Positions 5,526-57,308 of a stretch of DNA of 64,000 nucleotides are shown here, one piece after another. The position numbers and the translations under genes are program-made. Location of the stretch: positions 250,666,001 through 250,730,000 of the forward strand of contig NC_091473.1 in NCBI RefSeq assembly GCF_036971445.1, read 5' to 3'. Origin of the DNA: Narcine bancroftii (Eukaryota). The notes under the pieces were generated by a model. The model saw only the letters and a program-made list of their open reading frames with translations. It was not told where the DNA came from and did not search any database. The first letter of the stretch is position 1, and each line of letters starts with the position of its first letter.

Positions 5526-5924
5526 TTATGATGACATGAATAATTTGCAAAGGAAATTTTCTGCCTAGTCTAGTGGTTGTAATCATGTTTGCATGGCCAC
5601 TAGCAAGGCCTTGATTATAATTCCTGTTTGATTAGACTTGGCTGCCAGCAGGAGCTGACACAGTGCAAGACATAGTATGCAAGACATAGTATGCAAGATT
5701 TGTAATGGAGGCTTGCAGCTTCATGGTGCTGTTCACATCAACTTTAAAGTAAAGAACCTTTTCCTTCATCCATGTGTTGTCTAAGAACTCACTCATACAA
5801 ATACAAGATGAAACAATGGTGACTCAACATTTTGGAACTCCCACCCAATATACGAAGTACATATAGTTCTAATGCATATAGCATTGATAAAACTCTCAAT
5901 TCTGCATCCCATTCCCATACTTGC

Positions 5925-6730
5925 ATGGCCTCGTATCCTATCCCACCAAGACCATCCATAAATTTGAGGAACAACACCTGATTTCCCATCTGAGTACCTT
6001 CCAGCCAGATGGCATTAACATCGACCTCCAGTTTCTGCTAACCTACTCTCCTTTCTCCCCTTCCCCATCTCTCTACCCTATTACAGGCTCCTGTTTTAGT
6101 AAAATTGGATTATCACTGTGTAAGACAGGAGGAACTGAATGGTCAGTTAACATTCAACATCAGCACCCACAAGTCACAGCCCAGTGACAATTCGATACAT
6201 TGGAAGAACTGAGGGAAGGTTGCCACAGTCTGTTCCAGATTCGATACATTTGTAAAGACATTGAGATTGTGCCAAGGGAGAACCACGCTGACGGCTAAAG
6301 AGAAAACAGCCTCTTGAAGCAGTTCTTGTGGCCAGCCTTTCTGTGGAATTCAGAGCAAAGCATGCCGTTAATGATTGGCACTTTTCAGTGGACTGACCTA
6401 TGCCAGGAAGGTCTTTTCAAAAGCAAAATACTTCATTTTGAGGGTGACTTGTTAGGCACGGTTCGTAACAACCCCGTTTCCTCTCATTTCGCCTAGCCAT
6501 CCTTCCTCCCCCATTACCTCCTGCCTTTGGAACCATGCTCCACCCCCCCCCAATCCCTCCCACCCTCATTTTATTTGGACACCTATCGAAATTTTTCCAT
6601 ACCTTGATGAAGGGCTCAAGCCCGAAATCTCAGTTATGCATCTTTATTTTCACCATGTTTGACCAGCTGAGTTTGTTCAGCATTGTGTTTTTACTTCAAC
6701 CACGATATCTGCAGACTTTCATGTTTTACC
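5925..6730 (+). mobile_element. Penelope-like element 3' remnant (GIY-YIG C-terminus, pyrimidine-rich UTR, hammerhead-like motif), interrupted at about 6080-6470
   Basis: KFEEQHLISHLSTFQPDGINID at about 5955-6025; TTGATGAAGGGCTCAAGCCCGAAA at 6604-6627; family tail ...TCTGCAGACTTTCATGTTTTAC. Confidence 0.75.
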
Positions 6731-7156
6731 TCCCAATGGGTCTCCCATTTGATCTTGGTAAATAGTGACAACATTTGAGAGCCAATCAAAACTTCAAACA
6801 AGTGCATGCATTAATGCACTGCATGCAAGAGAACCTCTCACTCTTTAAAGCAAATGTAATAATTCTTACCAAAATTGCTATTATAAATCCCAAGAAATGT
6901 AAATTAAGAATACAAGATTCACAAATCTATTCCTCACTTGAAAATATATCACTCATCAAAACAAGGGAATATAATCAAATACAAAGCATCTTGAAATGGC
7001 ATGAGATTAGCAAAAAGTGCTCACAAATCCACATTTATCCCAAAGCTGTATTAAAGTGACAATTTATATTTAATCAAAGACGTCATTTTTAAACTTGTCA
7101 AGTGTCAACATTTGCATCCAGGACCAAAGGTTCATCTAAAACGATTTCAGACTCAC

Positions 7157-9815: not shown

Positions 9816-10060
9816 GGAGGGGAATACAAAATTGGCAACGGCCCCATTAACAATGAATTTATACACTGCAGCTATATACAACATGCTAGTGGTGGAAGTA
9901 ACGAATCCTTATGATGGTGAATGGGGTGTCAAAATGAAATGAACTGATTTGTCCTGCATGGTGGCATTAAGCTTCTTGGATGCTGTTGGAGCTGTATTTT
10001 CCAAGCAATGGAATACATTCCATTGTTGTCTTGGCACGTCTTGCAACTAATGAAAAGAGG

Positions 10061-10230
10061 TGAAGCACAAAAGTCTGCAGACAATGTGATTGTAGTAAAA
10101 ACAGAAATGCTGGAGGAACTGACATTTTGGGCCTAACCCCTTCTTCATGGTATGGCTCAGGCTCAAAACATTGATCATAAATCTTTACCTTCTATGGATG
10201 CTGCAAAACTTGCTGATTTCCTCAGCAGTT
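10061..10230. mobile_element. Penelope-like 3' termini in inverted arrangement
   Basis: Minus-strand tail (AAAAGTCTGCAGAC...ATGCTGGAGGAACT) joined to a plus-strand tail (GGCTCAGGCTCAAAAC...CTATGGATGCTGC). Confidence 0.6.
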
Positions 10231-10611
10231 CTAAGATTTTAATGAAAAAGGGCTTCAGGTGGCAGGTCAGGTCAGTTCCAACACCATATACTACCTTTGA
10301 CCCATTTATGTAATTGGTCCATAACAATACATTCTGAAGATGGGCATGCCCAGTGACTAGTGATAATACACGTTTGTTAACACTCAATGACTGGCATACA
10401 AACTCACGAAAAGATCAATGATGATCGGCAGGCCTAGCAAATTGCCCTGAGGATATCTTGCAGCAATGTCATGGGAGTTTGAACAATACTTGAACAATGC
10501 AACAACTACATGCTTTGTGCAAGACTCTAACCACTTCCTGGAAGACAGAGGAGTAAATCTATCTTGCATGTCCAATAAAACAACAGTGCGAAGTTCCCCA
10601 CAGGAGGTTAG

Positions 10612-14022: not shown

Positions 14023-15769
14023 CCCTTTTATTAAATAAATCTAAGTTTCCTCTTGATGATGTGAAGATATCACAACACTTTCTGAGAAAGTCAGAGTACT
14101 AAGAGCTGGAGGGAATGTTCACATACCCCCATTGCAAGCAGAAAGGCAAGCTTAACAATTAGCCTGAGAAGTCCAGTGCAAGAGAAATGTTCATTAAATC
14201 CACAGTGGATGGATAATCTGTTGAATTAATACACATCTGTTCACCATCTGCACAACAGGAACAGAAATTTCAACTCACAACATCTAAATCATGAACTAGC
14301 ACTGTATAAATGGGAACACCCAGCATTCCAATCTTCACACTGCAAAATGCTCCAATCACCAGATATTGGAAAAGCTGACAAACTTATCTGATTTCCACCT
14401 TCTGCAAAAGCCAAATATGCTAGAAGTATTCAGGTCCGACAACCCATAAAGGACAAAGTTCACATTCCATGTTAATGACCTACCATTGGTCAACTCTGCT
14501 TCTCTCTCCACAGATACTGTCTGATCCTGCTGATTATTAAGAGCATTTTCTGTTTACATTTCAATCAAATTGCTGGATAACAAAAGAAACAATTTTATTA
14601 AAAAATCCTACACACATTTTTTCCCTCAACTCTGTCCAAACTGAATTGCATTGATGCTTCAAGATCAAAATAAGATCTCAGCAGAATAGCCCAACTTGGA
14701 AGGGAAACTTATCAGTGGGAGAGGAAGTTAACACAGATGAGTCAGTTATTCAGCCGACTAGTTGTGGGAAAATTAAGACTTGCAATGTCCCAAACTTACT
14801 TCTAGATTTCCCTTCCTCATGTGTGACTGATTAAATAGACGATACTTATGGCCAACATCCCAGAAATAACTTTTTTGGTGTGGGGTGCACCAAGATAAAA
14901 GACAAAAATGCACATGTACGTTTACATTAGGATGTTCATTTTCTCTCTCACGTGATTATTGTTCTCAGTTCTGTTCAAAAATAGGAAGTACAATCTCAAA
15001 ATGATGCAAGGAGTAAATGGGAGCCTCAAATGTAATCCAAAACAGTTATAAACGCAAGAAAGAAAGCATGTTGAAATTGATGCTTCATAAAGAAACCATC
15101 TTTCTTCTTTGATATGTGATGTATATTCAAAGGTATAAACATCATTTATCAACTGTTTTCATTGCAAAATGAAGCCACATGAACAATTTCTCTCAGCAGC
15201 ACGAATAAGAGAATTTAATCTTTTGGCAAGGATATTTCAACAGGCAGATCATATGAATTGAGCATTTCAAATGTACTTGTTTAGCCAGCATTCATTGTAG
15301 CCTATAGTTTTCTATTTCATGGGTTTTTTAAAAATGTCACAACTTTGAACCATTTTCTTTTGGATGACACATCTTGCCATCTTAACAAGGAGCTTGACAA
15401 AGGGGTCAGGCCTGAAACATTCATTATACATCTCTGCTCTCCTATGGATGCTGCAGATCCTGTTGAATTTCTCCAGGTGTTGGTCATATTATTCATTTTC
15501 CCTGGCCATTTTAAAATAGTGGGACAAGATCTGAAAGGCCAGAATAACACTCACTGAAATGTCATTAATTTGCAAACAATTTACATTGATTAACCATTCA
15601 AAAGAACAATAGGCTGTAAACATACACTTTTAATTCAAAAATATTTAAGACTAATAGTCATTAAGACTATGTGGAAGCAAAGGGATATATAGTTAATAAA
15701 TAAATGCGACGATTACGATATTATTGCATAGACTACACTGTCACTTCGTGCTTCACTCATTTGATCTAT

Positions 15770-18154: not shown

Positions 18155-18435
18155 GCCGCCCCCCCCCCAGCGTGGGAGGGGGGGGGGCAGCCGCCCCCAG
18201 CGTGGGAGGGGGGGGGCAGCCGCCCCCAGCGTGGGAGGGGGGGGGCAGCCGCCCCCAGCGTGGGAGGGGGGGGGGGCAGCCGCCCCCAGCGTGGGTGGGG
18301 GGGGGCAGCCGCCCCCAGCGTGGGTGGGGGGGGGGCAGCCGCCCCCAGCGTGGGTGGGGGGGGGGCAGCCGCCCCCAGCGTGGGTGGGGGGGGGGCAGCC
18401 GCCCCCAGCGTGGGTGGGGGGGGGGGGCAGCCGCC
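18155..18435. repeat. G-rich minisatellite, 9 units of about 29-31 bp (CAGCCGCCCCCAGCGTGGG[A/T]Gn), GNAI intron 1
   Basis: Direct reading; units differ only in A/T and G-run length. Confidence 0.95.
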
Positions 18436-20330: not shown

Positions 20331-20579
20331 TTTGCTGGCATGTCAGCTCCAGGGGGCATTCGTGGGCATTGCCACCCCAAAAAGAGGTATTATGACCCCC
20401 CCCCCATCTGCAGCACTAGCGTCACTTGTGATGTGTCACTAGCATTTAGTGTCACCAGTCACCAGCAATAGAAGCAGCGCATTTGTCTGTTACGTCGGAG
20501 GGAGGTGGAAGGGAGATGGTGGTGGCAGTGCACAGAGGAGGTTCACGGTAGCAGGTAGGCACCCCCCACCCCTACCCTG

Positions 20580-21455
20580 GTTTCATGCACTGCCAGATGA
20601 GATCTCCAGAAGATGGCATTAACATTGATTTCTCGGACTTTTGTTTAAAAATCCCCTCCCCCTTCACATCTCCCCCCTCCACCCCTGCTACCTGCACCCA
20701 GCAATGTCTTTCTCTCTCCCCCTCTTTTCCCTGTCTCCTTTCACATAGATATAATCAATTCTCACCTCTCCCCTTATCCAATTACCAGTAATAACTTTTG
20801 TTGGTCTGGATTACTCACCCTGCTAGCTCTTCCTGTTTTCTGAAATTTCCTGCTTTTTGATCATTCTGGCTTTTCTTGAAGAAGGGCTCTGGCCTGAAAT
20901 CTCAGCAATATATCTTTGACTTCTATGGATGCTGAAAGACTGGCTGAATTCCTCTAGTATTTCAGTGTGGTTTTACTCTTCTTTGGCTTGGCTTCGCAGA
21001 CGAAGATTTATGGAGGGGTATGTCCACGTCTGCTGCAGGCTCGTTGGTGACTGACAAGTCCGATGCGGGACAGGCAGGCACGGTTGCAGCGGTTGCAAGG
21101 GAAAATTGGTGGGTTGGGGTTGGGTGTTGGGTTTTTCCTCCTTTGTCTTTTGTCAGTGAGGTGGGCTCTGCGGTCTTCAAAGGAGGTTGCTGCCCGCCGA
21201 ACTGTGAGGCGCCAAGATGCACGGTTGGAGGCGATATCACCCCACTGGCGGTGGTCAATGTGGCAGGCACCAAGAGATTTCTTTAAGCAGTCCTTGTACC
21301 TCTTCTTTGGTGCACCTCTCTCTCGGTGGCCAGTGGAGAGCTCACCATAGAACATGATCTTGGGAAGCCGATGGCCCTCCATTCTGGAGACGTGACCCAC
21401 CCAGCGCAGTTGGGTCTTCACAACAATCACAGCATCTGCAGACTTTTGTGTTTCA
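20580..21455 (+). mobile_element. Penelope-like 3' remnant split by a nested RTE
   Basis: DGINIDF end of GIY-YIG, TTGAAGAAGGGCTCTGGCCTGAAA motif; tail ...TTTTACT resumes as ACAATCACAGCATCTGCAG after the RTE. Confidence 0.75.
20977..21420 (-). mobile_element. RTE-clade LINE 3' end
   Basis: QLRWVGHVSRM...FPCNRCNRACLSRIGLVSHQRAC, 3' end ATCTTCGTC.GCGAAGCCAAGCCAAAGAAG. Confidence 0.92.
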
Positions 21456-21649
21456 TGTATTCACCCCTGCTATCTAATATTGTTTACCCTCCAAATCATA
21501 TTCCTTCTACCTTCCTACCCTCACTTTTTCCCTATCACTTCCTTCGTTTTCCTTTCAACCACTCTCCACTCCCTCTCCCCTCCTCTCACCTGCATTCCCT
21601 TTTCTCTTGCCACTGTCAATACAAAGAAAACTATTTCTTATTTAAAGAC

Positions 21650-25338: not shown

Positions 25339-25475
25339 ACCAGATGGTAATTACAGGCTGCTAAATGCATTGGTGGTCTAATTATGTATGTTAACATTTA
25401 AAGCGTGCAATAGATTTTTTAAAAGAACTGAATTTTAAAATGTGGATTGAATTCTATCCACAATTTGCTGCTGTC

Positions 25476-25644
25476 ATTGGGCACCTGACTACATTAATTC
25501 ATACCTTGATGAAGGGCTCAAGCCCAAAACATTGGTTATGTATCTTAATCTTTGCCATATAAAGGACACTGTTTGACTGGCTGAGTTTCTCCAACATTGT
25601 GTTTTTACTTCAACCACAGTGTCTGCAGACTTTCATGTTTTACT
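25476..25644 (+). mobile_element. Short Penelope-derived insertion with hammerhead-like motif and 12-bp TSD
   Basis: TTTGCTGCTGTC at 25464-25475 and 25645-25656; CATACC-TTGATGA-A-GGGCTCAAGCCC-AAAAC-ATT-GGTTATG at 25500-25540. Confidence 0.85.
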
Positions 25645-26636
25645 TTTGCTGCTGTCTGACCTTGCTTGCCTTGACTTCCAGTGTGTAATCAAAGATCAAC
25701 TCACATATACAAATATTATTTGAAGGGATGCAGAGTATTGCCCAAATATTGTTGTGCAGGTTATCAGTTCAAATCAGTTGTTACTGGAACAACAGCTGGA
25801 GAATGCACAAAGCACCAGCTAAATATCCTTATACAGTACTTCTGGAAAATACTATAAACAGAACCATCATTTCTGTCAATGGAAAGAGGCCATTTGGCCC
25901 CTTGTCCATACTAGCTGCTGCTCGAGCGATACAATAAGTTAAATTTTCAACAGTTGGAGGTCAAATGATTAGAATAACTTGTTAAAAAATAGCCTTATTA
26001 TCTATGTGGGTTCAGATGCCAATTCAGCAACTTGAATCCTTATTGCAGTCTGCATCTGTTCTATCTTTCGACTGAGAGAGGCTAATCTTGCTTCTCTGAT
26101 TGAAATGATAGATCCCAAGGAATTCTCCTGATGATAAGACCAACATCTATCCTTCCAAACACCAGAAACAGATAACCAAGACTATTGATGTGTATCAGCC
26201 TTGCCCTGATGGAATTGATCACCTAATTTTAAGTGAATACTATTGTAAAATATGCAATTGGAAGCTAACTGAGAAAGATGCAAATCCGGGCATATTCTTT
26301 CCTACAAAAAAAGCAGAAAATGGTGGTGACAATCAACAGGTCACGCAGCATCGGTAGAATGAGAAACAGATTTAGTGTTTCAAGTTGATGACTTTTCTGA
26401 AGTTATCACCTCCAACATTGACCCTAATTTTTGTTGCACAGGTGTTGTTTGACCAGCTATTTATAATATGTTCTGTTTTTGATTTCAGTTTTCTAGCATC
26501 TGAAGATTTTAAAAAAATTTTAAATTATATTTTCTTTCTTAATTGTAAGGTGAAGCCATTTTATTCAGTGCTATTTCTAAATGTGATCAAGTTGGAAAGG
26601 ACTGGAAATTCATTCTACTTCCAACAGTATTTTATT

Positions 26637-26760
26637 TCTGCGGACACCGTGGTTGAAGTGAAAACAATGCTGGAGAAACTCAGCAGGTCAAACAGTGTCT
26701 GCAATAGCAAAGATAAAGATACAGAACCGACGTTTCGGGCTTGAGCCCTTCATCAGGGGC
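26637..26760 (-). mobile_element. Short Penelope-derived insertion with intact hammerhead core
   Basis: Same family as 25476 on the minus strand. Confidence 0.8.
26729..26756 (-). ncRNA. Minimal type I hammerhead ribozyme motif (putative)
   Basis: CTGATGA-A-GGGC-TCAA-GCCC-GAAAC-GTC: both conserved core boxes, 4-bp helix II, palindromic ACGT helix III, GUC triplet. Activity untested. Confidence 0.65.
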
Positions 26761-27524
26761 TACTCCTATCATTTTATTCCTATCTCTTTTTAAAAAAATT
26801 TTCCTCAGATATACATTGTGAACTCTCAGCAATTATTCAGTTTTGTAACAGGCAAGATTGCTTGTCTGAATTCTCACACTGTTTTCCCACAGTTCTTGTG
26901 TGTTCATCAAGGTACAATCTCTGCTTCTTCAATGAAATCTTGTGTGTCTGTTTTCTCTGGCCGATTCCGGTCCAGCTTCAGAGTCAACTTTGGTTCAGGC
27001 ACAACTCCAAAAATATGAACATATAATCCTGTCTGGCTGTTCTGAGCAGCATTGCAGGGTCCCTGAAGACCAAAACATGCCTTTAAGATGAAATATTGAA
27101 CCCTACTAAAACAAAAATTCAATGCATTACATTGAAGGAGAGGTGTGGAGATGAGTCTCTAGAAGTTGTCAGGTCAATATAACTGAGGGATACTGCATTT
27201 GTAAAGCACTGCATCTGCAGTATTTCCAATTTTTCGGCAATACTTAAAACAAAAAAAGGCTAGAACTACCCGGCAGCCCAGGCTGAACCTGAGAAAAGAG
27301 GAAAGAGTTGCCAATTCATGTTGAAAATCCTTCCTCTGAATGGTCTCATAAGTATAATAAATGTAGTCGAGTTGCAGATGTTTTCAAAAGAAAGCAATTT
27401 GTTTCATAATCGAAGGAAAGCAGATGCATTGACTAATGGTGCTGTTTAACTAATTTTAATAAATGATTCATGGTTGCAGATTAGATTATATCTTCTGATA
27501 AGAGTGTATATTTTTCCACCATCC

Positions 27525-33270: not shown

Positions 33271-34129
33271 GGGAAAAATAGAGCATATTTATCTTCTTGA
33301 TAACAGTGCTGACATGTTCTGGAAAATTGTATCCAGTATTGGTTTCATTGGATTGGAAGTAGTGTGGACTAAGTTTACTGAACTTCCTTCCCATGTAATC
33401 CAGTCTGATCTGTATCAACCTGATCCCAAAATTACAGCATCGCCAGATGTATAGCTGCAAGAAGATCAATGTTAAAGCTTTCAAAAGAATCCATAAAGGA
33501 ATCTATTTTACAATGCTTCCAGCTTTAAGTTACAGGAGTTAACAGGTTGAAGCGAGCAGATACCATAGCTTCAGGGCTGTCCTTCAGGGCTTGGCATCTA
33601 TGAATAGCTTTTTATAACAAGAAAGTCCTGGACTAGTTTATGAGAATGACCAGGACATTGAAAAACTAATTGACCCCAAATGTAAACTGTATTTGAACCA
33701 CTACCATAGCTCAAAGGAAAATAAACTGGTGCATGTAGAACTGAATCCACTCCAGAACCAAGGTAACCTAAACCTCAATGGGTGGTTAAGTTATAATATG
33801 CAGCTAATGCTTGTATGCACTTGGAGAAGTTTACGAGAGAATGGGCATTAATCTCAAAATCTATGAATCAAGAGATCTCTGCCAGCCTGTCTGCTCTGTG
33901 CAACTCTGCATTGAAGAGTAAGGGTTCATGGCAGGACCCTAGAAATTTGGACCACCTTCCATATCACAGTGATGAGCTGTTTCTTTTCCTTTCATGAATG
34001 GTGGAGCTTTCAATCTTGGAACATCTTCTGTTTGCAGTTAATTAGCAACACTTGCAAATCTGTAGGGGTCATTTACTGCATCTGGTTTTCCCTATGCAGA
34101 TTCCTCGATGTAGGGGAGACTCGATGAAG

Positions 34130-34670
34130 ACTTCCAGATTGTTTCATTGAGCACCTTCACACTGTTGCAAGGGATCCCTGGTGTCCAAAAAAAAATTAAT
34201 TCCATGCACCATTGCCACATTGACATGTCTGTTCATGGTCTCAGATACTGTCAGATTAAGACCACCCTTAAATTAGAGGAACAACACCTTATATTCTGTC
34301 TTAGCAGTCTCCAACTAGACGATATCAATATTTGCTTCTCCAATTTCCAATAAACCCCTGCCCCAGACTTTTTTTTCCGACTCCTCTGTCTCCTTTCCTC
34401 CAGCTCCCCCAGCCCTTCCCTTCTTTCTCCTATCAGAGAACTATGCTTCCTGGCCCTTTGCCCTCTCCCCTATCACTTTTCAGCTTCTACCTGTATCAAT
34501 CTATTACCTGTTAGCCTGTGCTCCTCCTGCTTCCTCCCTCCTCTCCTCTCCCCCTCCCCTTGCCTTTGTATTCAAGTGTCCTCATTTTTCCATATTTCCA
34601 ACGCCCAAAATATTGGTTATCTTTTACTTCCTATGGTTGGTGCATGATCTCTTCAGCACTTTTCTGTATG
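34130..34670 (+). mobile_element. Penelope-like 3' remnant
   Basis: DMSVHGLRYCQIKTTLKLEEQHLIFCLSSLQLDDINI (GIY-YIG C-terminus) and pyrimidine-rich UTR. Confidence 0.8.
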
Positions 34671-35119
34671 GCAGAGGGTGAACAGACATAAGGTTCAGGC
34701 TTTAGCTTTAGAAGAGTGAATGCAGATAAATAGAAAAGAAAGATTTCATTTATGTTTTGTGTCACGTTGATGCAAGGTCCTGTGGCTAAAATCTAACACA
34801 AATCCCAAATCTCAGTTTACATCAAAATGTCAGCTTTCAAGATAGCATAGATTCCTTTCTACAAATAAATGGGAAGATGAAAATAATTAATTTTTTTTCA
34901 CCTAAATTTCAATCAGAAGACCTCATTGCAATCTCCTTAACTGTTTTCTGTGCACGGAACCAGAGTCATGGATCCACCTCAAGCCTTTTTCAAGACATTT
35001 TCTGAAATTGATGATTTGAATACTAACAATATGTCATCGTCATGGGTACCCTTAATCTTCAAGGATGATGGCCTTCATTCCATTGATCCACAGAGCAAAG
35101 ACGCTTGTGCGTTATAACA

Positions 35120-35622: not shown

Positions 35623-38390
35623 AGAAACATAGAAAATAGGTGTAGGAGTAGGCCATTTGGCCCTTCAAGCCAACACTGCCATTCATTATGATAATGGCTG
35701 ATCAGTACCCGGTTCCTGCCTTCTCCCATACCCCCTAGTCCCCTTAGCCACAAGGGCCAAATCTAACCTACACTTAAATATTGACAGGGAACCGGCCTCA
35801 ACTACTTCCTGTGACAAAGAATTCCACACATTTACCACTCTCTGAGAGAAGAAATCTTTCCTCACCTCAGTCCTAAAAAAATTCCCCCTTATCCTTAAAC
35901 TATGGTCCCTGATTTTGGTTTTTCCCAGCATTTGAAACAACTCTCCTGCATCTAGTCTGTCTAAATCCTTAAGAAGTTTATGTTTCTATAAGACCCCCCC
36001 TTCAATCTTCTAAATTCCAGAGAATACATGTCTAGTCTATCCAACCTTTCTTCATATGTGAGTCCCTCCATCCCAAGTATCAGCCTAGTGAACCTTCTCT
36101 GCACCCCCCCCCCCCCGCCCCAAGCAAGGATATCCTTCCTCAGATAAGGCGACCAAAACTGCACACAGTACTCCAGGTGTGGTCTCACCGAGGCCCTGTA
36201 CAGCTGCAGCAGGATCTCCCTACTCCTAGGCTCAAATCCTCTTGCTTTGAATGCCAACCTACCATTCGCCCTCCTCACCGCCTGTTGCACCTGCACGCCC
36301 ACTTTCAACGATTGATGCACAGCAACACCCAAGTTTCTCTGCATCTCTCCTTTTCCTAAACAGATACCATTTAGACAATAGTCTTTCCTGTTCTTACCTC
36401 CAAAGTGGCCCACTCGCATAACTTGTCCAAATCATCCTGCACTCTTCTAGCATCCTCCACACAGCTAACCCTGCCACCCAACTTCGTATTGTCTGCAAAT
36501 GTCGAGATATTGCTATCTATTCCCACATCTAAGTCATTGATGTATATCGTAAACAACTGTGGCCCCAGCACTGAGCTCTGCAATACCCCACTAGTCCACT
36601 GGCTGCCATTCTGAAAGAACCCATTTATTCCTACTCTTTGCTTCCTGTCCCTCAACCAATTCTCTATCCACCTTAATACCATACCACCTATACTGTGCTC
36701 TTTAAGTTTATATGCTAGTCTTCTGTGCAGAACCTTATCAAATGCCTTACTAAAGTCCAGATATACCACATCCACTGGTTCTCCCCTATCCACTCTACTG
36801 GTTACATCCACAAGAAACTATTAGATTCGTCAGACGTGATTTCCCCTTCACAAAACCTTGCTGACTCTGTGCGATGATACCACTACTTTCCAAATGTACT
36901 GCAATTGCATCTTTAATAACCGATTCTAGCACCTTCCCTACTACCAATGTCAAGCTAACTGGTCGGTAGTTTCCCGATTTCTCTCTCCCTCCCTTTTTCC
37001 AATCCTCAGGAACTAATCCAGTATCCAAAGAGGTTGAAGCATTATCTCCAACGCATTCACTATTTCCTGGACTACTTCCTTCAGCTTCTCGGATGCAGAC
37101 TATCTGGCCCCAGGGATTCATCTGCCTCTAATCCCTGCAATTTAACTAATACAACTTCTCGACTTACAATTATTTCCTTTAGTCCCTCCGTCACAATAGA
37201 TCCCCGATCCTCAATAATTTCCTGTAGATTAGTTATGTCTTCCTTGGTGAAGACAGAACTAAAATAGTCATTCAAACAGTCTGCCATATCCTTGTTCCCC
37301 ATGATCAACTCACCTGTTTCTGTCTGCAACAGACCCACATTTGTCTTAACTAACCTCTTTCTCTTAACGTATCTATAAAAGCTTTTACAGTCATTTTTTA
37401 TGTTCCCTGCCAGCTTCCTCTCATAATCCCTTTTACCTTTCCTAATGAATCCTTTTGTCCTCCTCTGCAGAACTCTGAATTTCTACCAATCATCAAGTAT
37501 ATTATTCTTTTTGGCTAATTTTTAAGATCCTTCTTTGGATTTGACACTCTCTCAGATCTCCCTTGTTAGCCATGGATGCGCTACCTTCCTCGATTTATTC
37601 TTCATACAAACTGGGATGTACGTTTTCTGCACTTGCTCCAAGCTATCCTTAAATATTGCCATTGTATTTGTATAAGTGAAATAGTGAATGCGTTGGTGAT
37701 AATGCTTCAACCTCTTTGGATACTGGATTAGATCCTGAGGATTGGAGGGTGGCCAACGTAACTCCACTCTTTAAAAAGGGAGGGAGAGAGAAATCGGGAA
37801 ACTACTGACCAGTTAGCTTGACATTGGTAGTAGGGAAGGTGCTAGAATCGATTATTAAAGATGCAATTGCAGTACATTTGGAAAGTAGTGGTATCATCGC
37901 ACAGAGTCAGCAAGGTTTTGTGAAGGGGAAATCACGTCTGACGAATCTAATAGTTTCTTGTGGATGTAACCAGTAGAGTGGATAGGGGAGAACCAGTGGA
38001 TGTGGTACATCTGGACTTTAGTAAGGCATTTGATAAGGTTCCGCACAGAAGACTAGCATATAAACTTAAAGAGCACATTGTTAGTCCTTTAAGTACCATT
38101 TGCCAATCTATCTTAGCCAATTCACATCTCATACCATCAAACTCTTCAAGTTCAAAACCTTTGTATCCATATCAACTCTGTCACATTCCATCCTAATGAA
38201 GAATTCCACATATTGTGGTCATTCTTGCCCAAGGGGTTCTTCACAACAAGATTGCTAATTAACCCTTCTCCATTAATCAATACCCAGTTTAGAATGGCTC
38301 GTTCCCTCATTGGTTCCTCAACATGCTGATTTAGAAAACAATCCCACGTACATTCTAAGAAATCCTCTTCAACCTTACCCTTACCAATGC
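35623..38390 (-). mobile_element. Long CR1/HER1 LINE (endonuclease end to 3' UTR), decayed
   Basis: PLGKNDHN, NYRPVSLT, YLDFSKAFDKV, FADNTKLGG, RPHLEYCVQFWSP, FFSQRVV in the correct order on the minus strand. Confidence 0.93.
37678..38077 (+). repeat. Inverted duplicate of 36694-37066 inserted inside the same CR1
   Basis: Near-identical reverse complement; differs by a few substitutions and one 27-bp indel. Confidence 0.92.
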
Positions 38391-38703
38391 CTGTTCCACC
38401 ATTGAGGACTTGGTTGGATTGTTTTTTGTCAGGGACTTCACCTTCGACCTTACTGCCATGGGTGAGCATACCAGGAGCAGAGCTCCAGACTGCATCACTG
38501 TCGAAATCTCAGAAGCACATAAGGTTCTCCACCATGGCAAGGTGACAATCAATGCAGAAGTATCAACACATAGCTGTTAGCTGAAGACAATACTTTTCAA
38601 CTTGCCTGGCGTTTTTATATTTTGCATGTTGAATTTTGTTAAGAATTATAGACACCATTAAAATTTCTTGAGTTGGACTGTTGAGGAAGGATTAGTTCTG
38701 GTT

Positions 38704-39365
38704 TGAAACACAAAAATCTGCAGACGCTGTGATTGTAGTAAAACGCAAAAATGCTGGAGGAACTCAGCAAGTCTCACAGCATCCATAGGAGGTTAAGATA
38801 CATAACCAATGTTTTGGGTCCTTTGTCAAGGTATGAGCAAAAAGAAAGCAAGTGCCTGAATAAAAAGGTTGGGAAGAAAGGGGAAGGGGAGGAGCACAGG
38901 CCAACACACATAAGGTGATAAATGGATAGGTAGGAGGGTAGGAGAGGAAAGGTGAGAATTGATTGTGGGGGTGGGGGGGATTGGGGTTGGCCCCATGAAT
39001 GGAGAGATGGAGGAAAGGATACAGAGGGAAAAGGATAGGGGGAGAGACAGAGCTAGAGAAAAGGAGAAATAGGGACAGGGGAAGGGGAGAGATGAGAGGT
39101 GAGGGTGCTAAAAGAAACCGGTTAATGGCATCCAGTTGGAGGATGTCCAGATGGAATATGAGGTGTTGTTCCTTCGGTTTGTGGATGGGCTCAGTCTGGC
39201 AGTGCATGACACCATAGATAAACGTGTCAGCCTGGGAAAGGTGCAGGGAACTGATATGGGTTGCCACTGGGAGATCCCTGCTATTGCAGTGAATAGAGCC
39301 TAGATGTGGAACAAAATGTACTCCCAGTCTGCGTGCAATATTTCCAATGTAGAGGAAACCACAAC
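38704..39365 (-). mobile_element. Penelope-like remnant with GIY-YIG domain
   Basis: Minus strand GFLYIGNIARRLG...DLPVATH...EQHLIFHLDILQLDAIN, UTR and family tail. Confidence 0.85.
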
Positions 39366-39491
39366 GAAGCTTTCATAGTGAGATAGCATGGTTACAATCT
39401 AATGTACACATTCCAACTAATTAAAGGTTACCGATTCTCTGGGTGAAATTATACATTAAAAAATCTGCATACCTATGAACTAAGAATTCAC

Positions 39492-39670
39492 ACACACCAA
39501 AATGCTGGAGGAACTCAGCCGGTCTTTCAACGTCCACAGGAGACCAAGATATATTGCTGACATTTCGGGCTTGAGCCTTTCTTCAAGGGCTACTAAAAGA
39601 CCAGCTGCGTTCCTCCAGCATTTTGGTGTGTTTTTACTACATTCACCATTTCTGCAGACTTTCATGTTTC
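39492..39670. mobile_element. Short Penelope-derived insertion with inverted 5' part and 13-bp TSD
   Basis: ACTAAGAATTCAC at 39479-39491 and 39671-39683; 36-bp inverted arms 39492-39527 / 39596-39631. Confidence 0.88.
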
Positions 39671-40920: not shown

Positions 40921-41060
40921 CCTTGGTGAAGGGCTCAAGCCCAAAAACACTGGTGATACACCTTGATCTTTGCTGTGTAAAGGACACTGTTTGACTTGCT
41001 GAGTTTCTCCAGCATCGTGTTTTTACCTCAACCACGGTGTCTGCAGACTTTCATGTTTTA
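40921..41060 (+). mobile_element. Short Penelope-derived insertion
   Basis: CCTTGGTGAAGGGCTCAAGCCC...CTTTCATGTTTTAC; ACAAAGTG on both sides may be a TSD; sits inside a CR1 remnant. Confidence 0.75.
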
Positions 41061-45479: not shown

Positions 45480-45920
45480 TCCCTCTACCACGATCAACAC
45501 AGCCCTTACCCGTATATCCTCCATTACTCCTGAATCTGCCCTAGTCCCTTCTGCTCCCATGTGCAACAAGGACAGGATTTCCCTTGTCCTCACCACCTCA
45601 CCAGCCTTTGTATCCAACACTTCCTCCTCCACCATTTCTGCTACCTACTAGACACAGGGTTAGGGTTAGGGTTAGGGTTCCTTCTGTCTCCTTTTGCAGA
45701 GCCAAAATCAATTTTCACCTCTCCTCTTATCATATCCAATTAACACCTTTTTTTGGTCTGGACTCCTACCCCAGCCAGACTTCAGTCTTTATTCTGACGC
45801 CTTCCTGTTCTTTGCTTATTCCTTGAAGTAGGGCTCAGGCCCAAAATGTCGGTAATATATCATTTCCTCCCATGGACGGTGTGAGACCAGCTGAATTCCT
45901 GCAGTAATTCTGTGTGTTTT
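45480..45920 (+). mobile_element. Penelope-like remnant with internal deletion
   Basis: KDRI.LVLT...TSL.IQH..LHHF-type segment, then UTR, TTGAAGTAGGGCTCAGGCCCAAAATGTCGG motif and tail. Confidence 0.75.
45656..45679 (+). repeat. Interstitial telomeric sequence (AGGGTT)4
   Basis: 24 bp perfect. Confidence 0.9.
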
Positions 45921-46451
45921 TAATGTATTTAAATCACAACTATTAAATTGGGTTGTGTTCTCTGCACAAAGCATGCTTCTTTGAATGGAATTTGAAGTAC
46001 TTCATTTAACACCTGTTCCTTCCAACAAAGTGCATTGGGAAAACAGCATCAATCCCACAATTTCTCACTGTGAAGGTGCAGGACTTTCATTGTGGGAGGA
46101 GGCCTTCAGAAATCAATGACTGTATCTCCAAAATGGCTGAAATACCACAAACTTTTCTGGGCTATAGCCAGGAGCCCAAATGGGCAGCTTTTCCTTCAAC
46201 ATGCACAGTATATCATGTTATATACTTGCAGCAAGACAACAATTTCAGCAAGCAAGCTTTGTACTTAAACATTAATGTGCTTAATGACAGAACCTCAAAA
46301 GATTGTGTGGAAATTGAACTTCTTTCAGATGTTTTCTTAGGCATTTCTTCAGGGACAGGGAAGAGTTGTTTCTGCTCCAGGTTCGGATCATTTTGGTCAG
46401 TTCCATTCTCTAGTATGAAACTCAAGCCACACTTACCGGGACCAGATGCAA

Positions 46452-50700: not shown

Positions 50701-51525
50701 CCAGACATCTACCAGGCGCCTACCTCGAATGTCCACCAGGAGGCCGTGGGCGAGGAGGAAGTCGGCCCCCAGGATGGCGGTTGGAAGGGACGAGATGCTG
50801 AACCTCCATGAGAACCTTCGCCGGCCGATCTGGAAGTCGACTGTCTTGTTTTCATACGTCTGGATCTCTGTTGTGTTGGCTGCACGGAGGGGAGGTCCTC
50901 GAGGTCGGTTCCCGGACTCGATGCCATGGCCAGGATGACACTGATCTGGGCCCCAGCATCGACAAGGAAGCACCAGCCGCTGACCGTCCCGCAGGTAGAG
51001 GAGGCTGTGTCCTTGGCCAGCCGCCACAGCCATTTACAGTGGGCGGCCTGCTTGTTCCCTGGAACGAGCAGGGCTGATGACACTTGCGAGCCTTGGCTCC
51101 CTACCACTGGTGGTAGAAGCAGAGGCCCGGAGTGGATCCCATGCCCCTGGTTATGCTCTTGGTGGCCCCTGCAGGGGCTGAGTGTTCTACTGCAGCGCTA
51201 GGGGCAGGCTTGGTGTGGTCATGCCCATGCCTCGTGACCTGTTAGACTGCCGAGGCCTCCGGGAAACGCTCGATCCATAGAACTTGGGCCTTCTGAGCAA
51301 CCTTCCTCGGGTCGATAAAGCTCTCTTGAGCCAGTAACGACCGGATATCCTCGGGCAAATTGTTGAGGACAATTTGCTCAAAGAGTGGACAGTTAGTGTG
51401 ATCACCCATGAGCACGAGCATCTCATTCATCAGCTCCACTGGGGACCTGTCCCTCAAGGCGTCGCGGTGCAGCATCCGAGCGGCACGCTGATGCCTAGGT
51501 AGTCCAAGGGATCTGGTGAACACTC
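47732..51525 (-). mobile_element. Gypsy LTR retrotransposon 2, CsRN1-like, lacking 5' LTR and gag N-terminus
   Basis: 3' LTR 47732-48009 (TGTAG...GCCACA), G-run PPT, gag C-x2-H-x9-C-x3-C knuckle (about 51068-51121), FLVDAGA protease, YLDD RT, TDHKPL RNase H, integrase TTAYH.QANG. Confidence 0.93.
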
Positions 51526-53072
51526 ACTGATGAAGAAACTCAGCAGGTCCAACAGTGTAACAAAGATAAATGTACATAACCAATCATAGAACATTACAGC
51601 AGGCCCCTTCGGCCCTTCTAGTTTGTGCTGAACCATTTATTTTTGCCTAGTCCTACTGATTGCACCCAGCCCTCTATACCTCTCCCATCCATGTACCTGT
51701 CCAAATTTCTCTTAAGTGTTACAACTGAGCCTGCATTCACCACCTCAGCTGGCAGCTCCCACCACTCTCTGTGTGAAGAAGTTACCCCTAAACTTTTCCC
51801 TTTCACTCTTAACCTCTAGTTTGTAACAAGGCTCATCGAGTTACCTCGATGAGACCGATATGTTGTTTATGTATCTTTATCTTTGCTACATAAAGTATGC
51901 CATTTGACCTGCTGAGTTTCTCCAGAATTGTGTTTTTACTTCAACCACAGTGTCTACAGACTTGTGTGTTTTACTTCTGAATTTGTCATGTTAAATTTTA
52001 ATGAATGTTTTTCTTGGATCTTTATTTTGATAAGTAGAAACTTACTGAACTGCAGAGCCATTCGCAAAATAAAGATAGAAGTTCAGGAAAAGGAAATATC
52101 AGGTTTATCTGACCATTTCTCTCCTCTGTCTTCCGTCTCAGTTCTGAAGTGTGGGTGACAACTTCATCCACCAATCATGAAGTGTCCCAGTAGCCATGTT
52201 GCTTCTTCAGTGCATCCAGAGAATATATCTTGAGCTACTGGAGTGTACAGTGTATAGACCTTTTGGGTCTATAAAAATTGAGGCTAGTGGGAAAGCAGTG
52301 TTCCTCAGGGCGGTGGGGAGGTGGGGGGAGGGGGTAGCTGGTCTTCTTGAATGAAGTGAGAACAGTTACACCCAATTGACCTACACCCTTATGTTTGGAA
52401 CAGTAGGAGGAAACCAAAGCACCCAGAGTATCAATCCTTCCATTGATCAGTGGCCTAATGCAATGTCTTTAAAATGCAGAAGTTAGGAAATCCTACTGCA
52501 ATTACAAGGGGCTCTGGTGAGGCACATTTATCTATTTTTGGTCTCCTGAACTAAGAAAAAAGCTACACATAAAGACAGAGGCAAAGAGTCTCATTCCATG
52601 GATGAGAGCTTGCTGTACAAGGACCAATTGAATATACCATTTAAACATAAAATTCTCAATGGAATTGGCACAATGGTGTTGGGAAGATGTTTCTCCAACA
52701 TTCAGACTCAGAATAAAGGGTAGGTTGTTTAGGATTGAAATGAGGAGAAATTTCTTCATTCAGAGAATGACGAATCTTTGGAATTCTTGACCTTAGGGTT
52801 CAGGCGTTGAATTCATTTAAAACAGAGATCAATAGATTTCTGGGTGTTAAGGAAATAGGGAAGATAAAAACGCAGATTAATTTTGAAAGTAAATGATGAG
52901 AATTTAAAAATGAAGCCATTTTCAGAGCAGGAAGCAGTGCAAGTGAGTGGGGGAAGTTGACAGATTAACATGATGGTGCATTTTGGATATGAACAAAGCA
53001 ATTGAATGTGTAGAAGTTCATGGGAGGAGCAATGTGTGAGTGTTTTGTGTGATCAAATCAGATTTGATGGGT

Positions 53073-57182: not shown

Positions 57183-57308
57183 GAATGAAACATGAAAAAT
57201 CTGCAGTGATTGTAGTAAAAATGCAGAGATGGTGGAGGAACTCAGCTGATCTCACAGTGTCCATAGATATATTAACATTTCAGGCCTGAGCCCTTCTTCA
57301 TGACGTGC
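57183..57308 (-). mobile_element. Short Penelope-derived insertion with 14-bp TSD
   Basis: TGAACAATTTTATG at 57169-57182 and 57309-57322; TGAAGAAGGGCTCAGGCCTGAAA at its 5' end. Confidence 0.85.

What the first reader, a model, noticed from the sequence alone, without database searches (positions are those of the whole stretch)
25464..25656. Family of 125-180 bp TSD-flanked Penelope-derived elements that begin near a hammerhead motif
Seen: clean TSDs of 12 bp (25476-25644), 13 bp (39492-39670) and 14 bp (57183-57308), plus similar short copies at 26637-26760, 40921-41060 and 15390-15490. They consist only of the terminal tail also found on longer GIY-YIG-bearing remnants (5925, 20580, 34130, 38704, 45480), and their 5' ends fall within about 30 nt of the hammerhead core. 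Two tail subfamilies are visible (...CAACCACAGTGTCTGCAG and ...TACAATCACAGCGTCTGCAG). Inference: either a SINE-like, ribozyme-carrying non-autonomous family without a Pol III head, or preferential RT termination at the ribozyme fold. Roughly 15-20 copies in 64 kb imply very high genomic abundance.
Basis: partly seen in the sequence, partly recalled or inferred. Interest (0 to 1): 0.7.

Follow-up and report, generated by a model that had tools for sequence, protein, structure and literature searches.

The report
Penelope stubs ending at ribozyme edge
These short repeats are stumps of a very abundant Penelope-type jumping gene, mixed in with its long copies rather than forming a family of their own, and they stop about nine to twelve times more often than expected at the front edge of its small hammerhead-ribozyme motif, likely because the RNA being copied begins there.

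Summary
The three TSDs are exact. The copies are end pieces of endonuclease-bearing, Neptune-type Penelope-like elements. In 160 random 10-kb stretches, 20 of 49 solo copies reaching the hammerhead end within -15..+12 of core position 3, against 2.3 expected. An independent set chosen by 3' sequence only gives 14 of 34 against 1.2. Simulation and flank composition argue against alignment bias. The mode (-6..-1) is the far 5' edge of the motif; there is no excess at the cleavage site or the 3' foot of the stems. Short and long copies intermix, without short-specific mutations (low power), so a SINE-like family is unsupported. The same segment is the 5' leader of near-full-length copies, and an initiator-like motif sits at -5. 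Best reading: cDNA primed internally in the leader runs off the RNA 5' end. Main rival: a predicted long-range helix over -6..+6. One cited copy (39492) is a head-to-head pair. About 300,000 insertions genome-wide; this window is ~3.5-fold richer than average. Truncation, tail and inverted copies are published; eight earlier notes of this scan report such stubs in other genomes.

The parts
25464..25475 (+). left copy of 12-bp target-site duplication
25476..25644 (+). focal short copy, subfamily A, from -30 to the long 3' end T2 (+138); numbering from hammerhead core position 3 = 25506
25500..25540 (+). minimal type I hammerhead motif, decayed in this copy: stem I 5' strand 25500-25505, core from 25506, expected cleavage after 25533; initiator-like A at 25501
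25610..25644 (+). optional ~35-nt tail between the two 3' ends T1 (~25609) and T2 (25644)
   Evidence: 3' end histogram; PMC11167929, PMC8557442
25645..25656 (+). right copy of 12-bp target-site duplication
39492..39588 (-). inverted arm (-2 to T1) of a head-to-head insertion, subfamily B
39595..39670 (+). forward arm (about +57 to T2) of the same insertion; 13-bp TSD round both arms
57183..57308 (-). solo short copy, subfamily B, aligned from -2 with 5 extra nt, 14-bp TSD
26637..26770 (-). solo short copy, subfamily A, aligned from -2; 8-bp candidate TSD
40921..41059 (+). solo short copy, subfamily A, starting at about -2; 8-bp exact repeat, longer with mismatches
15391..15481 (+). diverged short copy starting at about -3, no TSD found
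10057..10239 (.). second head-to-head insertion (arms from -7 and +7), 9-bp TSD
51516..51979 (.). probable head-to-head pair of A arms separated by about 260 nt of other sequence
38700..39372 (-). long remnant, subfamily B: GIY-YIG C-terminal frame (39121-39372), pyrimidine-rich 3' UTR, hammerhead, tail
5885..6731 (+). long remnant, subfamily A, interrupted
20576..21458 (+). long remnant, subfamily B, split in its tail by a younger LINE fragment (20980-21420)
34096..34679 (+). long remnant of an older type
45679..45926 (+). remnant with 3' UTR from -142 to T1; ORF fragment upstream near 45480

Best explanation
The short copies are end pieces of Neptune-type Penelope-like retrotransposons whose 5' ends pile up at the 5' edge of the hammerhead motif, likely because the element's reverse transcriptase starts internally in the 5' leader of the element's RNA and runs off an RNA end that would lie at about -5. 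SHOWN: element identity; two 3' ends ~35 nt apart; the peak and its position; no peak at the cleavage site; the same hammerhead-plus-tail segment precedes the ORF region in near-full-length copies; short and long copies intermix. FROM PAPERS: internal priming at two sites in the pLTR-ORF junction, extension of both target strands, no need for ribozyme cleavage in vitro (PMC11167929); transcription starting inside the pLTR (PMC2377424). INFERRED: a transcription start at the initiator-like A(-5); long copies come from priming in the downstream pLTR or from transfer of the run-off cDNA to it; head-to-head insertions come from two primings, one per target strand, one at each start site; the short copies are mostly dead-end by-products.
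For: Peak: 20 of 49 vs 2.3 expected (random A+B solo), 13 of 29 vs 1.07 (A only), 14 of 34 vs 1.19 (independent 3'-pattern set); pooled mode -6..-1, few ends upstream of -15. Controls: 19 of 689 simulated truncations made between -200 and -21 were miscalled into -15..+20; 19 of 20 peak copies have flanks <=0.58 pyrimidine whereas all 79 true UTRs are >=0.62; 0 copies in reversed DNA. Tail runs straight into the element body in 7 loci; 24 exact matches to one junction motif genome-wide. In three composite insertions the downstream unit again starts at -6 (L074), about -5 (L311) and +4 (L312) and is preceded by body sequence, as if the enzyme ran off and jumped; in L074 both units stop at the peak inside one 10-bp TSD. 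26 of 52 arms of head-to-head insertions end in the same window, so the boundary is set during cDNA synthesis. YYANWYY with A at -5 in 36 of 43 A and 22 of 35 B long copies, the only such position shared by both. Pairs are short-end plus long-end in 15 of 19 classifiable cases (P=0.003); the short-end arm reaches further 5' in 15 of 19 pairs differing by >10 nt (P=0.019), which simple fold-back of the long-end cDNA cannot give.
Against: No RNA 5' end was observed. The initiator motif is low in information (5 and 3 such sites in 370 nt of A and B). One leader-plus-body copy (L311) continues to -81, so templates extending upstream of -5 exist or a further transfer occurred. The focal copy itself starts at -30 and a TSD-bounded copy at about -24. 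Ends spread over ~25 nt with a second bump at +9..+11, wider than a clean run-off. In D. virilis the start site lies ~120 nt upstream of helix I, with an intron between (PMC2377424 and PMC4209133 passages), so a start at helix I is not the known arrangement. Few solo ends are TSD-validated: 6 of the solo copies in the random set plus window reached TSD score >=9. The window -15..+12 was chosen after seeing the random set; only the pattern set is a true replicate.
Confidence: 0.55

Rival explanations
1. A long-range RNA helix stops the enzyme: the stretch -6..+6 pairs with a complementary stretch ~30 nt past the tail, at the start of the element body (it includes a candidate AUG). This partner lies 3' of the priming sites, so cDNA synthesis would not melt it, and it exists only in leader-plus-body RNA, which would give short copies from the leader and long copies from the downstream pLTR.
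For: In the natural contiguous leader of L311, eight consecutive pairs have predicted probability 0.95-0.98 and appear in both MFE and centroid. Duplex energy beat shuffled body in 3 of 4 pairings (14, 71 and 8 of 1000 shuffles as good, using an upper-quartile copy). It covers the same positions as the peak and would explain U at core position 3. C at +1, the complement of the A-type body, occurs in 4 of 33 short and 0 of 43 long A copies (P about 0.03 by my arithmetic, uncorrected).
Against: Fourth pairing no better than shuffles (805 of 1000); other windows pair as well with the pyrimidine-rich body; whole-leader fold z=-0.61. A block should leave ends at the 3' edge (+6..+11), but the mode is at the 5' edge. 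L311 was copied through it. Only 7 body-bearing loci were seen. Not exclusive with run-off: the helix may simply close an RNA that starts at -5.
Confidence: 0.2
2. The cDNA is made longer and then cut or resected back to about -5 by the element's GIY-YIG nuclease or by repair, with microhomology joining.
For: The nuclease of an anole PLE cuts within its own pLTR at ATT (PMC11167929); several 5' junctions show microhomology with the target.
Against: About half of the copies keep this region intact (29 of 49 read through); the boundary is the same in A and B although the upstream sequence differs; composite insertions show the boundary at internal jump points.
Confidence: 0.08
3. A SINE-like non-autonomous family: short masters starting at -5 are transcribed and re-mobilised in trans.
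For: Very high number (42 solo copies at the peak in 1.6 Mb, ~87,000 genome-wide), own TSDs, common 5' boundary; an internal promoter is known for D. virilis Penelope (PMC2377424).
Against: Tree label changes 28 vs shuffled mean 31.1 (70 of 500 as low) in A, 18 vs 16.3 in B; between-minus-within distance P=0.15 and 0.22; best of 208 column tests (P=0.0026) is a variant of long copies; equal divergence (0.097 vs 0.107) and equal use of both 3' ends. Power is limited: 92 columns.
Confidence: 0.07
4. Solo pLTRs left by recombination between the two ends of full-length insertions.
For: Solo pLTRs are described in Adineta (PMC3846280 passages); this would give one TSD-flanked unit.
Against: Cannot make head-to-head arms that stop at the same boundary (26 of 52 arms); RT-bearing copies are few (6 in 1.6 Mb vs 144 insertions); still needs a 5' boundary at -5.
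Confidence: 0.05
5. The ribozyme itself sets the end, by self-cleavage (5' end at +28, retrozyme-like) or by stalling RT at its helices.
For: The motif is conserved and stem I covaries between subfamilies; a small bump at +9..+11.
Against: 1 of 50 and 0 of 35 solo copies end at +21..+35; 0 of 49 and 1 of 35 at +13..+20. Core position 3 is U in 63 of 68 A and 44 of 47 B copies and A has a GUU triplet. No multimeric arrays: 4 of 106 copies have a direct neighbour within 150 nt, all pairs of unequal units.
Confidence: 0.03

Closest known systems
Insertions of canonical endonuclease-bearing Penelope-like elements (PMC8557442, PMC3846280)
   Same: RT followed by C-terminal GIY-YIG, heavy 5' truncation, pLTR with hammerhead motif, optional 30-40-nt tail often at one end only, adjacent inverted 5'-truncated copy, partial tandems, TSDs of variable length.
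   Different: The passages I read describe truncation as variable; they report no sharp 5' boundary at the hammerhead edge, no shared boundary for inverted arms, and no leader-body helix.
Poseidon element of Anolis (PAc; PMC11167929)
   Same: Two adjacent internal RT start sites downstream of the hammerhead at the pLTR-ORF junction that define the tail; no sign that cleavage defines ends.
   Different: This element has a CX4CxxC linker (Neptune-type) and U at core position 3; its ORF does not start in stem II (frame from the core ATG stops after 17 codons in subfamily A, read). PAc 5' end distribution was not reported in the parts I read.
Minimal hammerheads of metazoan PLEs (PMC4209133)
   Same: Type I motif with long helix II, short helix I, palindromic helix III remnant, mostly as single dispersed motifs attributed to truncated PLEs, some as opposite-strand pairs.
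   Different: U3-G8 rather than C3-G8 or U3-A8; activity untested.
Non-LTR retrozymes (bioRxiv 10.64898/2026.07.22.740005)
   Same: Short, non-coding, hammerhead-bearing, pLTR-related, many monomers.
   Different: No tandem arrays of equal units; ends not at the cleavage site; copies not separate from the autonomous family.
Retroviral minus-strand strong-stop DNA (recalled)
   Same: Internal priming near the RNA 5' end, run-off, then a jump.
   Different: Primed by nicked target DNA, not tRNA; products are integrated; the analogy is inferred only.

Membership tests
EN+ Penelope-like element | RT domain followed by C-terminal GIY-YIG endonuclease in one ORF | tested here: met
   Collinear in L049/L050 and L211-L240; RVT_1 only E=5e-4, below cut-off; Atlas 0.94 to HTH_animal/RVT_1/GIY-YIG clusters; Pfam missed both short fragments
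EN+ Penelope-like element | [quoted passage not shown] | tested here: met
   8 of 14 readable decayed frames
EN+ Penelope-like element | pLTR: same segment at 3' end and in front of the ORF | tested here: met
   7 loci with tail running into the body
EN+ Penelope-like element | optional 30-40-nt tail; inverted truncated copy at 5' side; TSD | tested here: met
Neptune clade | CX2-5CxxC motif in the RT-EN linker | tested here: met
   5 of 14 frames, others frameshifted or decayed; criterion from PMC8557442
Neptune clade | placement in RT phylogeny with reference Neptune elements | not tested
   no reference sequences were at hand
Minimal type I hammerhead ribozyme | conserved core boxes with helices I and II | tested here: met
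   column counts; stem I C-6:G+34 in 49 of 68 A, T-6:A+34 in 23 of 47 B; no Rfam match
Minimal type I hammerhead ribozyme | Watson-Crick pair 3-8 | tested here: not met
   U3 with G8 in most copies of both subfamilies
Minimal type I hammerhead ribozyme | self-cleavage | not testable with these tools
   needs in vitro assay
SINE-like non-autonomous family | short copies form their own lineage with diagnostic mutations | tested here: not met
   limited power
SINE-like non-autonomous family | Pol III-derived head | tested here: not met
   5' junctions go straight from flank into the hammerhead edge
Non-LTR retrozyme | tandem arrays of equal hammerhead-bearing units | tested here: not met
   4 of 106 with a direct neighbour, units unequal; local arrays elsewhere in the genome not excluded by a 1.6-Mb sample
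Non-LTR retrozyme | monomer ends at the cleavage site; circular RNA | tested here: inconclusive
   DNA ends not at +28; circular RNA not testable

The most novel reading that the evidence does not exclude
Penelope-like elements make a strong-stop cDNA: the RNA starts at the hammerhead's 5' edge, where a long-range helix with the start-codon region silences the leader ribozyme; both nicked target strands prime on one RNA at the two adjacent start sites and run to that end; transfer of the run-off cDNA to the downstream pLTR or into the body builds long copies and partial tandems, and failure leaves tens of thousands of stubs and hairpins. The stubs would then be a genomic record of the missing steps of the PLE cycle.
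Probability: 0.3. Interest if true: 0.7.

Novelty: new member of a known kind. Interest (0 to 1): 0.4.

Why it matters
As a repeat it is ordinary: truncated Penelope-like insertions. The measurable part is that about 40% of copies reaching the hammerhead stop at its 5' edge, in solo, inverted and composite insertions alike. How PLEs finish an insertion and regenerate their pLTRs is open (PMC11167929, PMC2377424), and an in vitro system exists, so this boundary, the pairing of short-end with long-end arms and the predicted leader helix are directly testable. It also warns annotators against calling such stubs SINEs or retrozymes.

Tried and rejected
Rfam scan: only two chance miRNA matches on the 39492 palindrome. 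Pfam on two short fragments: nothing; PDB sequence search: nothing. A splice acceptor at the boundary, as in D. virilis: no AG at -8..-5 in either subfamily and no shared upstream exon at the junctions; an AG near -31 exists in many long copies but has no peak (2 of 29 end at -16..-35). Hidden short inverted arms next to the 34 peak solo copies: none at the threshold of 14 matches, though L074 and L084 show 12-17-nt ones by eye. My first reading that GUU at the cleavage triplet is CpG decay holds for B only. My first clade label, Poseidon, was dropped. TSD search over the whole upstream flank was too noisy for scores below 9. Look-up of earlier notes by sequence found nothing. Further pattern-selected loci could not all be taken: 30 of 43, 17 of 252 and 20 of 430 matches were examined, none of the 57, and 2 new of 24 junction matches.

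Full report
Observation. The three cited TSDs are exact and abut the cited ends. The short copies match each other and the ends of longer remnants. The window lies on a 258-Mb contig of a 3.33-Gb genome; the repeats look like those of cartilaginous fishes (recalled, not tested). Positions below count from hammerhead core position 3 (window 25506 = 0; expected cleavage after +27).

What the element is. The 30 best genome matches to the focal copy are 85-93% identical, and most continue upstream into a pyrimidine-rich UTR and nuclease-coding sequence. Longer loci show RT motifs followed by a C-terminal GIY-YIG region. Library support is modest but consistent: RVT_1 at E=5e-4, below cut-off, and Atlas hits of 0.94 to HTH_animal/RVT_1/GIY-YIG clusters. 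CxxC between GIY and YIG is kept in 8 of 14 readable frames and a CX4CxxC linker in 5 of 14, which by the criterion in PMC8557442 means Neptune-type; no RT tree was built. There are two 3' ends, T1 near +100 and T2 near +138: the known optional tail. In 7 loci T2 runs on into the element body, so hammerhead plus tail is both the 3' end and the 5' leader, as in the anole element.

Sampling. I drew 160 separate 10-kb stretches at random from 12 contigs, using lengths guessed from early hits, so two large contigs and the distal parts of some others were not sampled. Profiles for A (24 copies), B (23) and an older type C (5) found 201 segments, 161 with a 3' end, and none in reversed DNA. Counting a head-to-head pair once gives 144 insertions, about 300,000 genome-wide (bootstrap 243,000-360,000), 5.8 per 64 kb. 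A second set was chosen only by exact match to 33-41 nt near the 3' end: the first 30 of 43, 17 of 252 and 20 of 430 matches.

The peak. After dropping edge-cut copies, inverted arms, type C and scores under 40, 55 solo A+B copies remain; 49 reach +12 and 20 end within -15..+12, against 2.3 expected from the upstream rate (8.7-fold, Poisson P=8.5e-13) and also above the downstream rate (P=1.4e-6). Without the score and family filters it is 42 of 91 against 4.9. The pattern set gives 14 of 34 against 1.2 (P=4e-11). The interval was chosen after seeing the first set, so the second is the real replicate. Ends at +21..+35 number 1 of 50 and 0 of 35; at +13..+20, 0 of 49 and 1 of 35. The pooled mode is -6..-1 with a smaller bump at +9..+11 (all). 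In 1,020 simulated truncations of 51 long copies (44 in the training sets, 7 held out), 19 of 689 cut between -200 and -21 were miscalled into -15..+20 and median errors were about -1 nt. Flanks of 19 of 20 peak copies are at most 0.58 pyrimidine, against at least 0.62 in all 79 true UTRs, so unmodelled UTRs do not explain it. TSD validation is thin because copies are 10-19% diverged from their majority.

Not a separate family. On positions +12..+103, 47 short and 46 long A copies need 28 label changes against a shuffled mean of 31.1 (70 of 500 shuffles as low); 19 short and 39 long B copies need 18 against 16.3. Distance permutation gave P=0.15 and 0.22, and no column marks short copies. These sets pool random, window and search-selected loci and have only 92 columns, so a minor short-only lineage is not excluded.

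Inverted and composite insertions. 26 of 67 pattern-selected insertions are head-to-head and 26 of their 52 arms end in the peak. Of 23 pairs in the random set plus window, 19 are classifiable and 15 combine T1 with T2 (P=0.003 against independent choice). In 15 of 19 such pairs (both sets) differing by more than 10 nt, the T1 arm reaches further 5' (P=0.019). A fold-back of the T2 cDNA cannot exceed its own 5' end, so two primings fit better, although deletions at palindrome centres could blur this. That the tail is often on one end only is published (PMC8557442). L074, L311 and L312 carry leader plus 68-530 nt of body followed by a unit that starts at -6, about -5 and +4; L292's second unit starts at +43 and L311's upstream unit reaches -81.

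Mechanism. Priming inside the leader at T1 or T2 is shown in vitro for a relative (PMC11167929). A start site at the initiator-like A(-5), present in 36 of 43 A and 22 of 35 B long copies, would make 105-145-nt run-off products, while priming in or transfer to the downstream pLTR would give long copies. This is inferred; I put it at 0.55. The chief rival (0.2) arose late: the body ~30 nt past T2 is complementary to -6..+6, with pair probabilities of 0.95-0.98 in the natural leader of L311, better than shuffled body in 3 of 4 pairings, but with an unremarkable overall fold (z=-0.61). The two can both be true. Cleavage or stalling at the ribozyme's own helices is disfavoured by the histogram; the motif has U3-G8 in 63 of 68 A and 44 of 47 B copies, so its activity is uncertain, though stem I covaries between subfamilies.

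Literature. Read: PMC11167929 parts 1-2 of 4 (abstract, main text, start of methods); PMC4209133 parts 1-2 of 4; bioRxiv 10.64898/2026.07.22.740005 parts 1-3 of 5; passages only of PMC8557442, PMC3846280 and PMC2377424. Seven searches showed no paper whose listing or read text reports a 5' boundary at the hammerhead edge; most subscription papers and Repbase are outside the library, and no supplements were read (the anole paper's Fig. S2 and the preprint's tables may bear on this). Retroviral strong-stop DNA is recalled. Eight unchecked notes of this scan describe such stubs in other genomes, most with the same reading; my reading was recorded before seeing them, the term strong-stop is taken from one, and they are not counted as support. 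None of their shown lines mentions the initiator motif or the leader-body helix.

Verdict. Real and abundant, a new member of a known kind, with one robust quantitative feature that makes an open step of the Penelope cycle testable. Interest 0.4.

Noticed in passing
window 20980-21420; L059, L086, L111, L162, L176, L246, L287: A younger LINE (RTE-like C-terminus, label recalled) sits inside Penelope tails more often than expected: 3 of 62 of its 3' ends in the random sample abut a Penelope segment at +51..+53 by script, and L162 (same site) and L176 do so by eye. Possible insertion hot spot; it slightly inflates my +41..+60 endpoint counts.
   Followed up: partly
window 39589-39594 and 26759-26770: Extra bases at two 5' junctions read as the reverse complement of the body stretch that is predicted to pair with the hammerhead edge (compare L074); may record template contact at that helix. 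Seen in only 1-2 of 34 other peak copies.
   Followed up: partly
L074:8316-8645: One TSD-flanked insertion with a 17-nt inverted tail end, a leader from +2 running 68 nt into the body, then a second unit from -6 to the short 3' end.
   Followed up: yes
L273 upstream of the leader; L271: L273's leader is cut at +66 by sequence resembling an LTR-retroelement gag (recalled motif); L271 has an inverted 3' UTR piece joined at about +110.
   Followed up: no
L211, L213, L227, L221 N-terminal region: The ORF's N-terminal part holds imperfect ~40-60-nt repeats of variable number.
   Followed up: no
random sample L051-L210: Copies are clustered: 79 of 160 stretches have none, two have 6 and 8.
   Followed up: no
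window 18161-18435, 36694-38077: A 95%-identical tandem pair and a 92%-identical inverted pair of other repeats.
   Followed up: no
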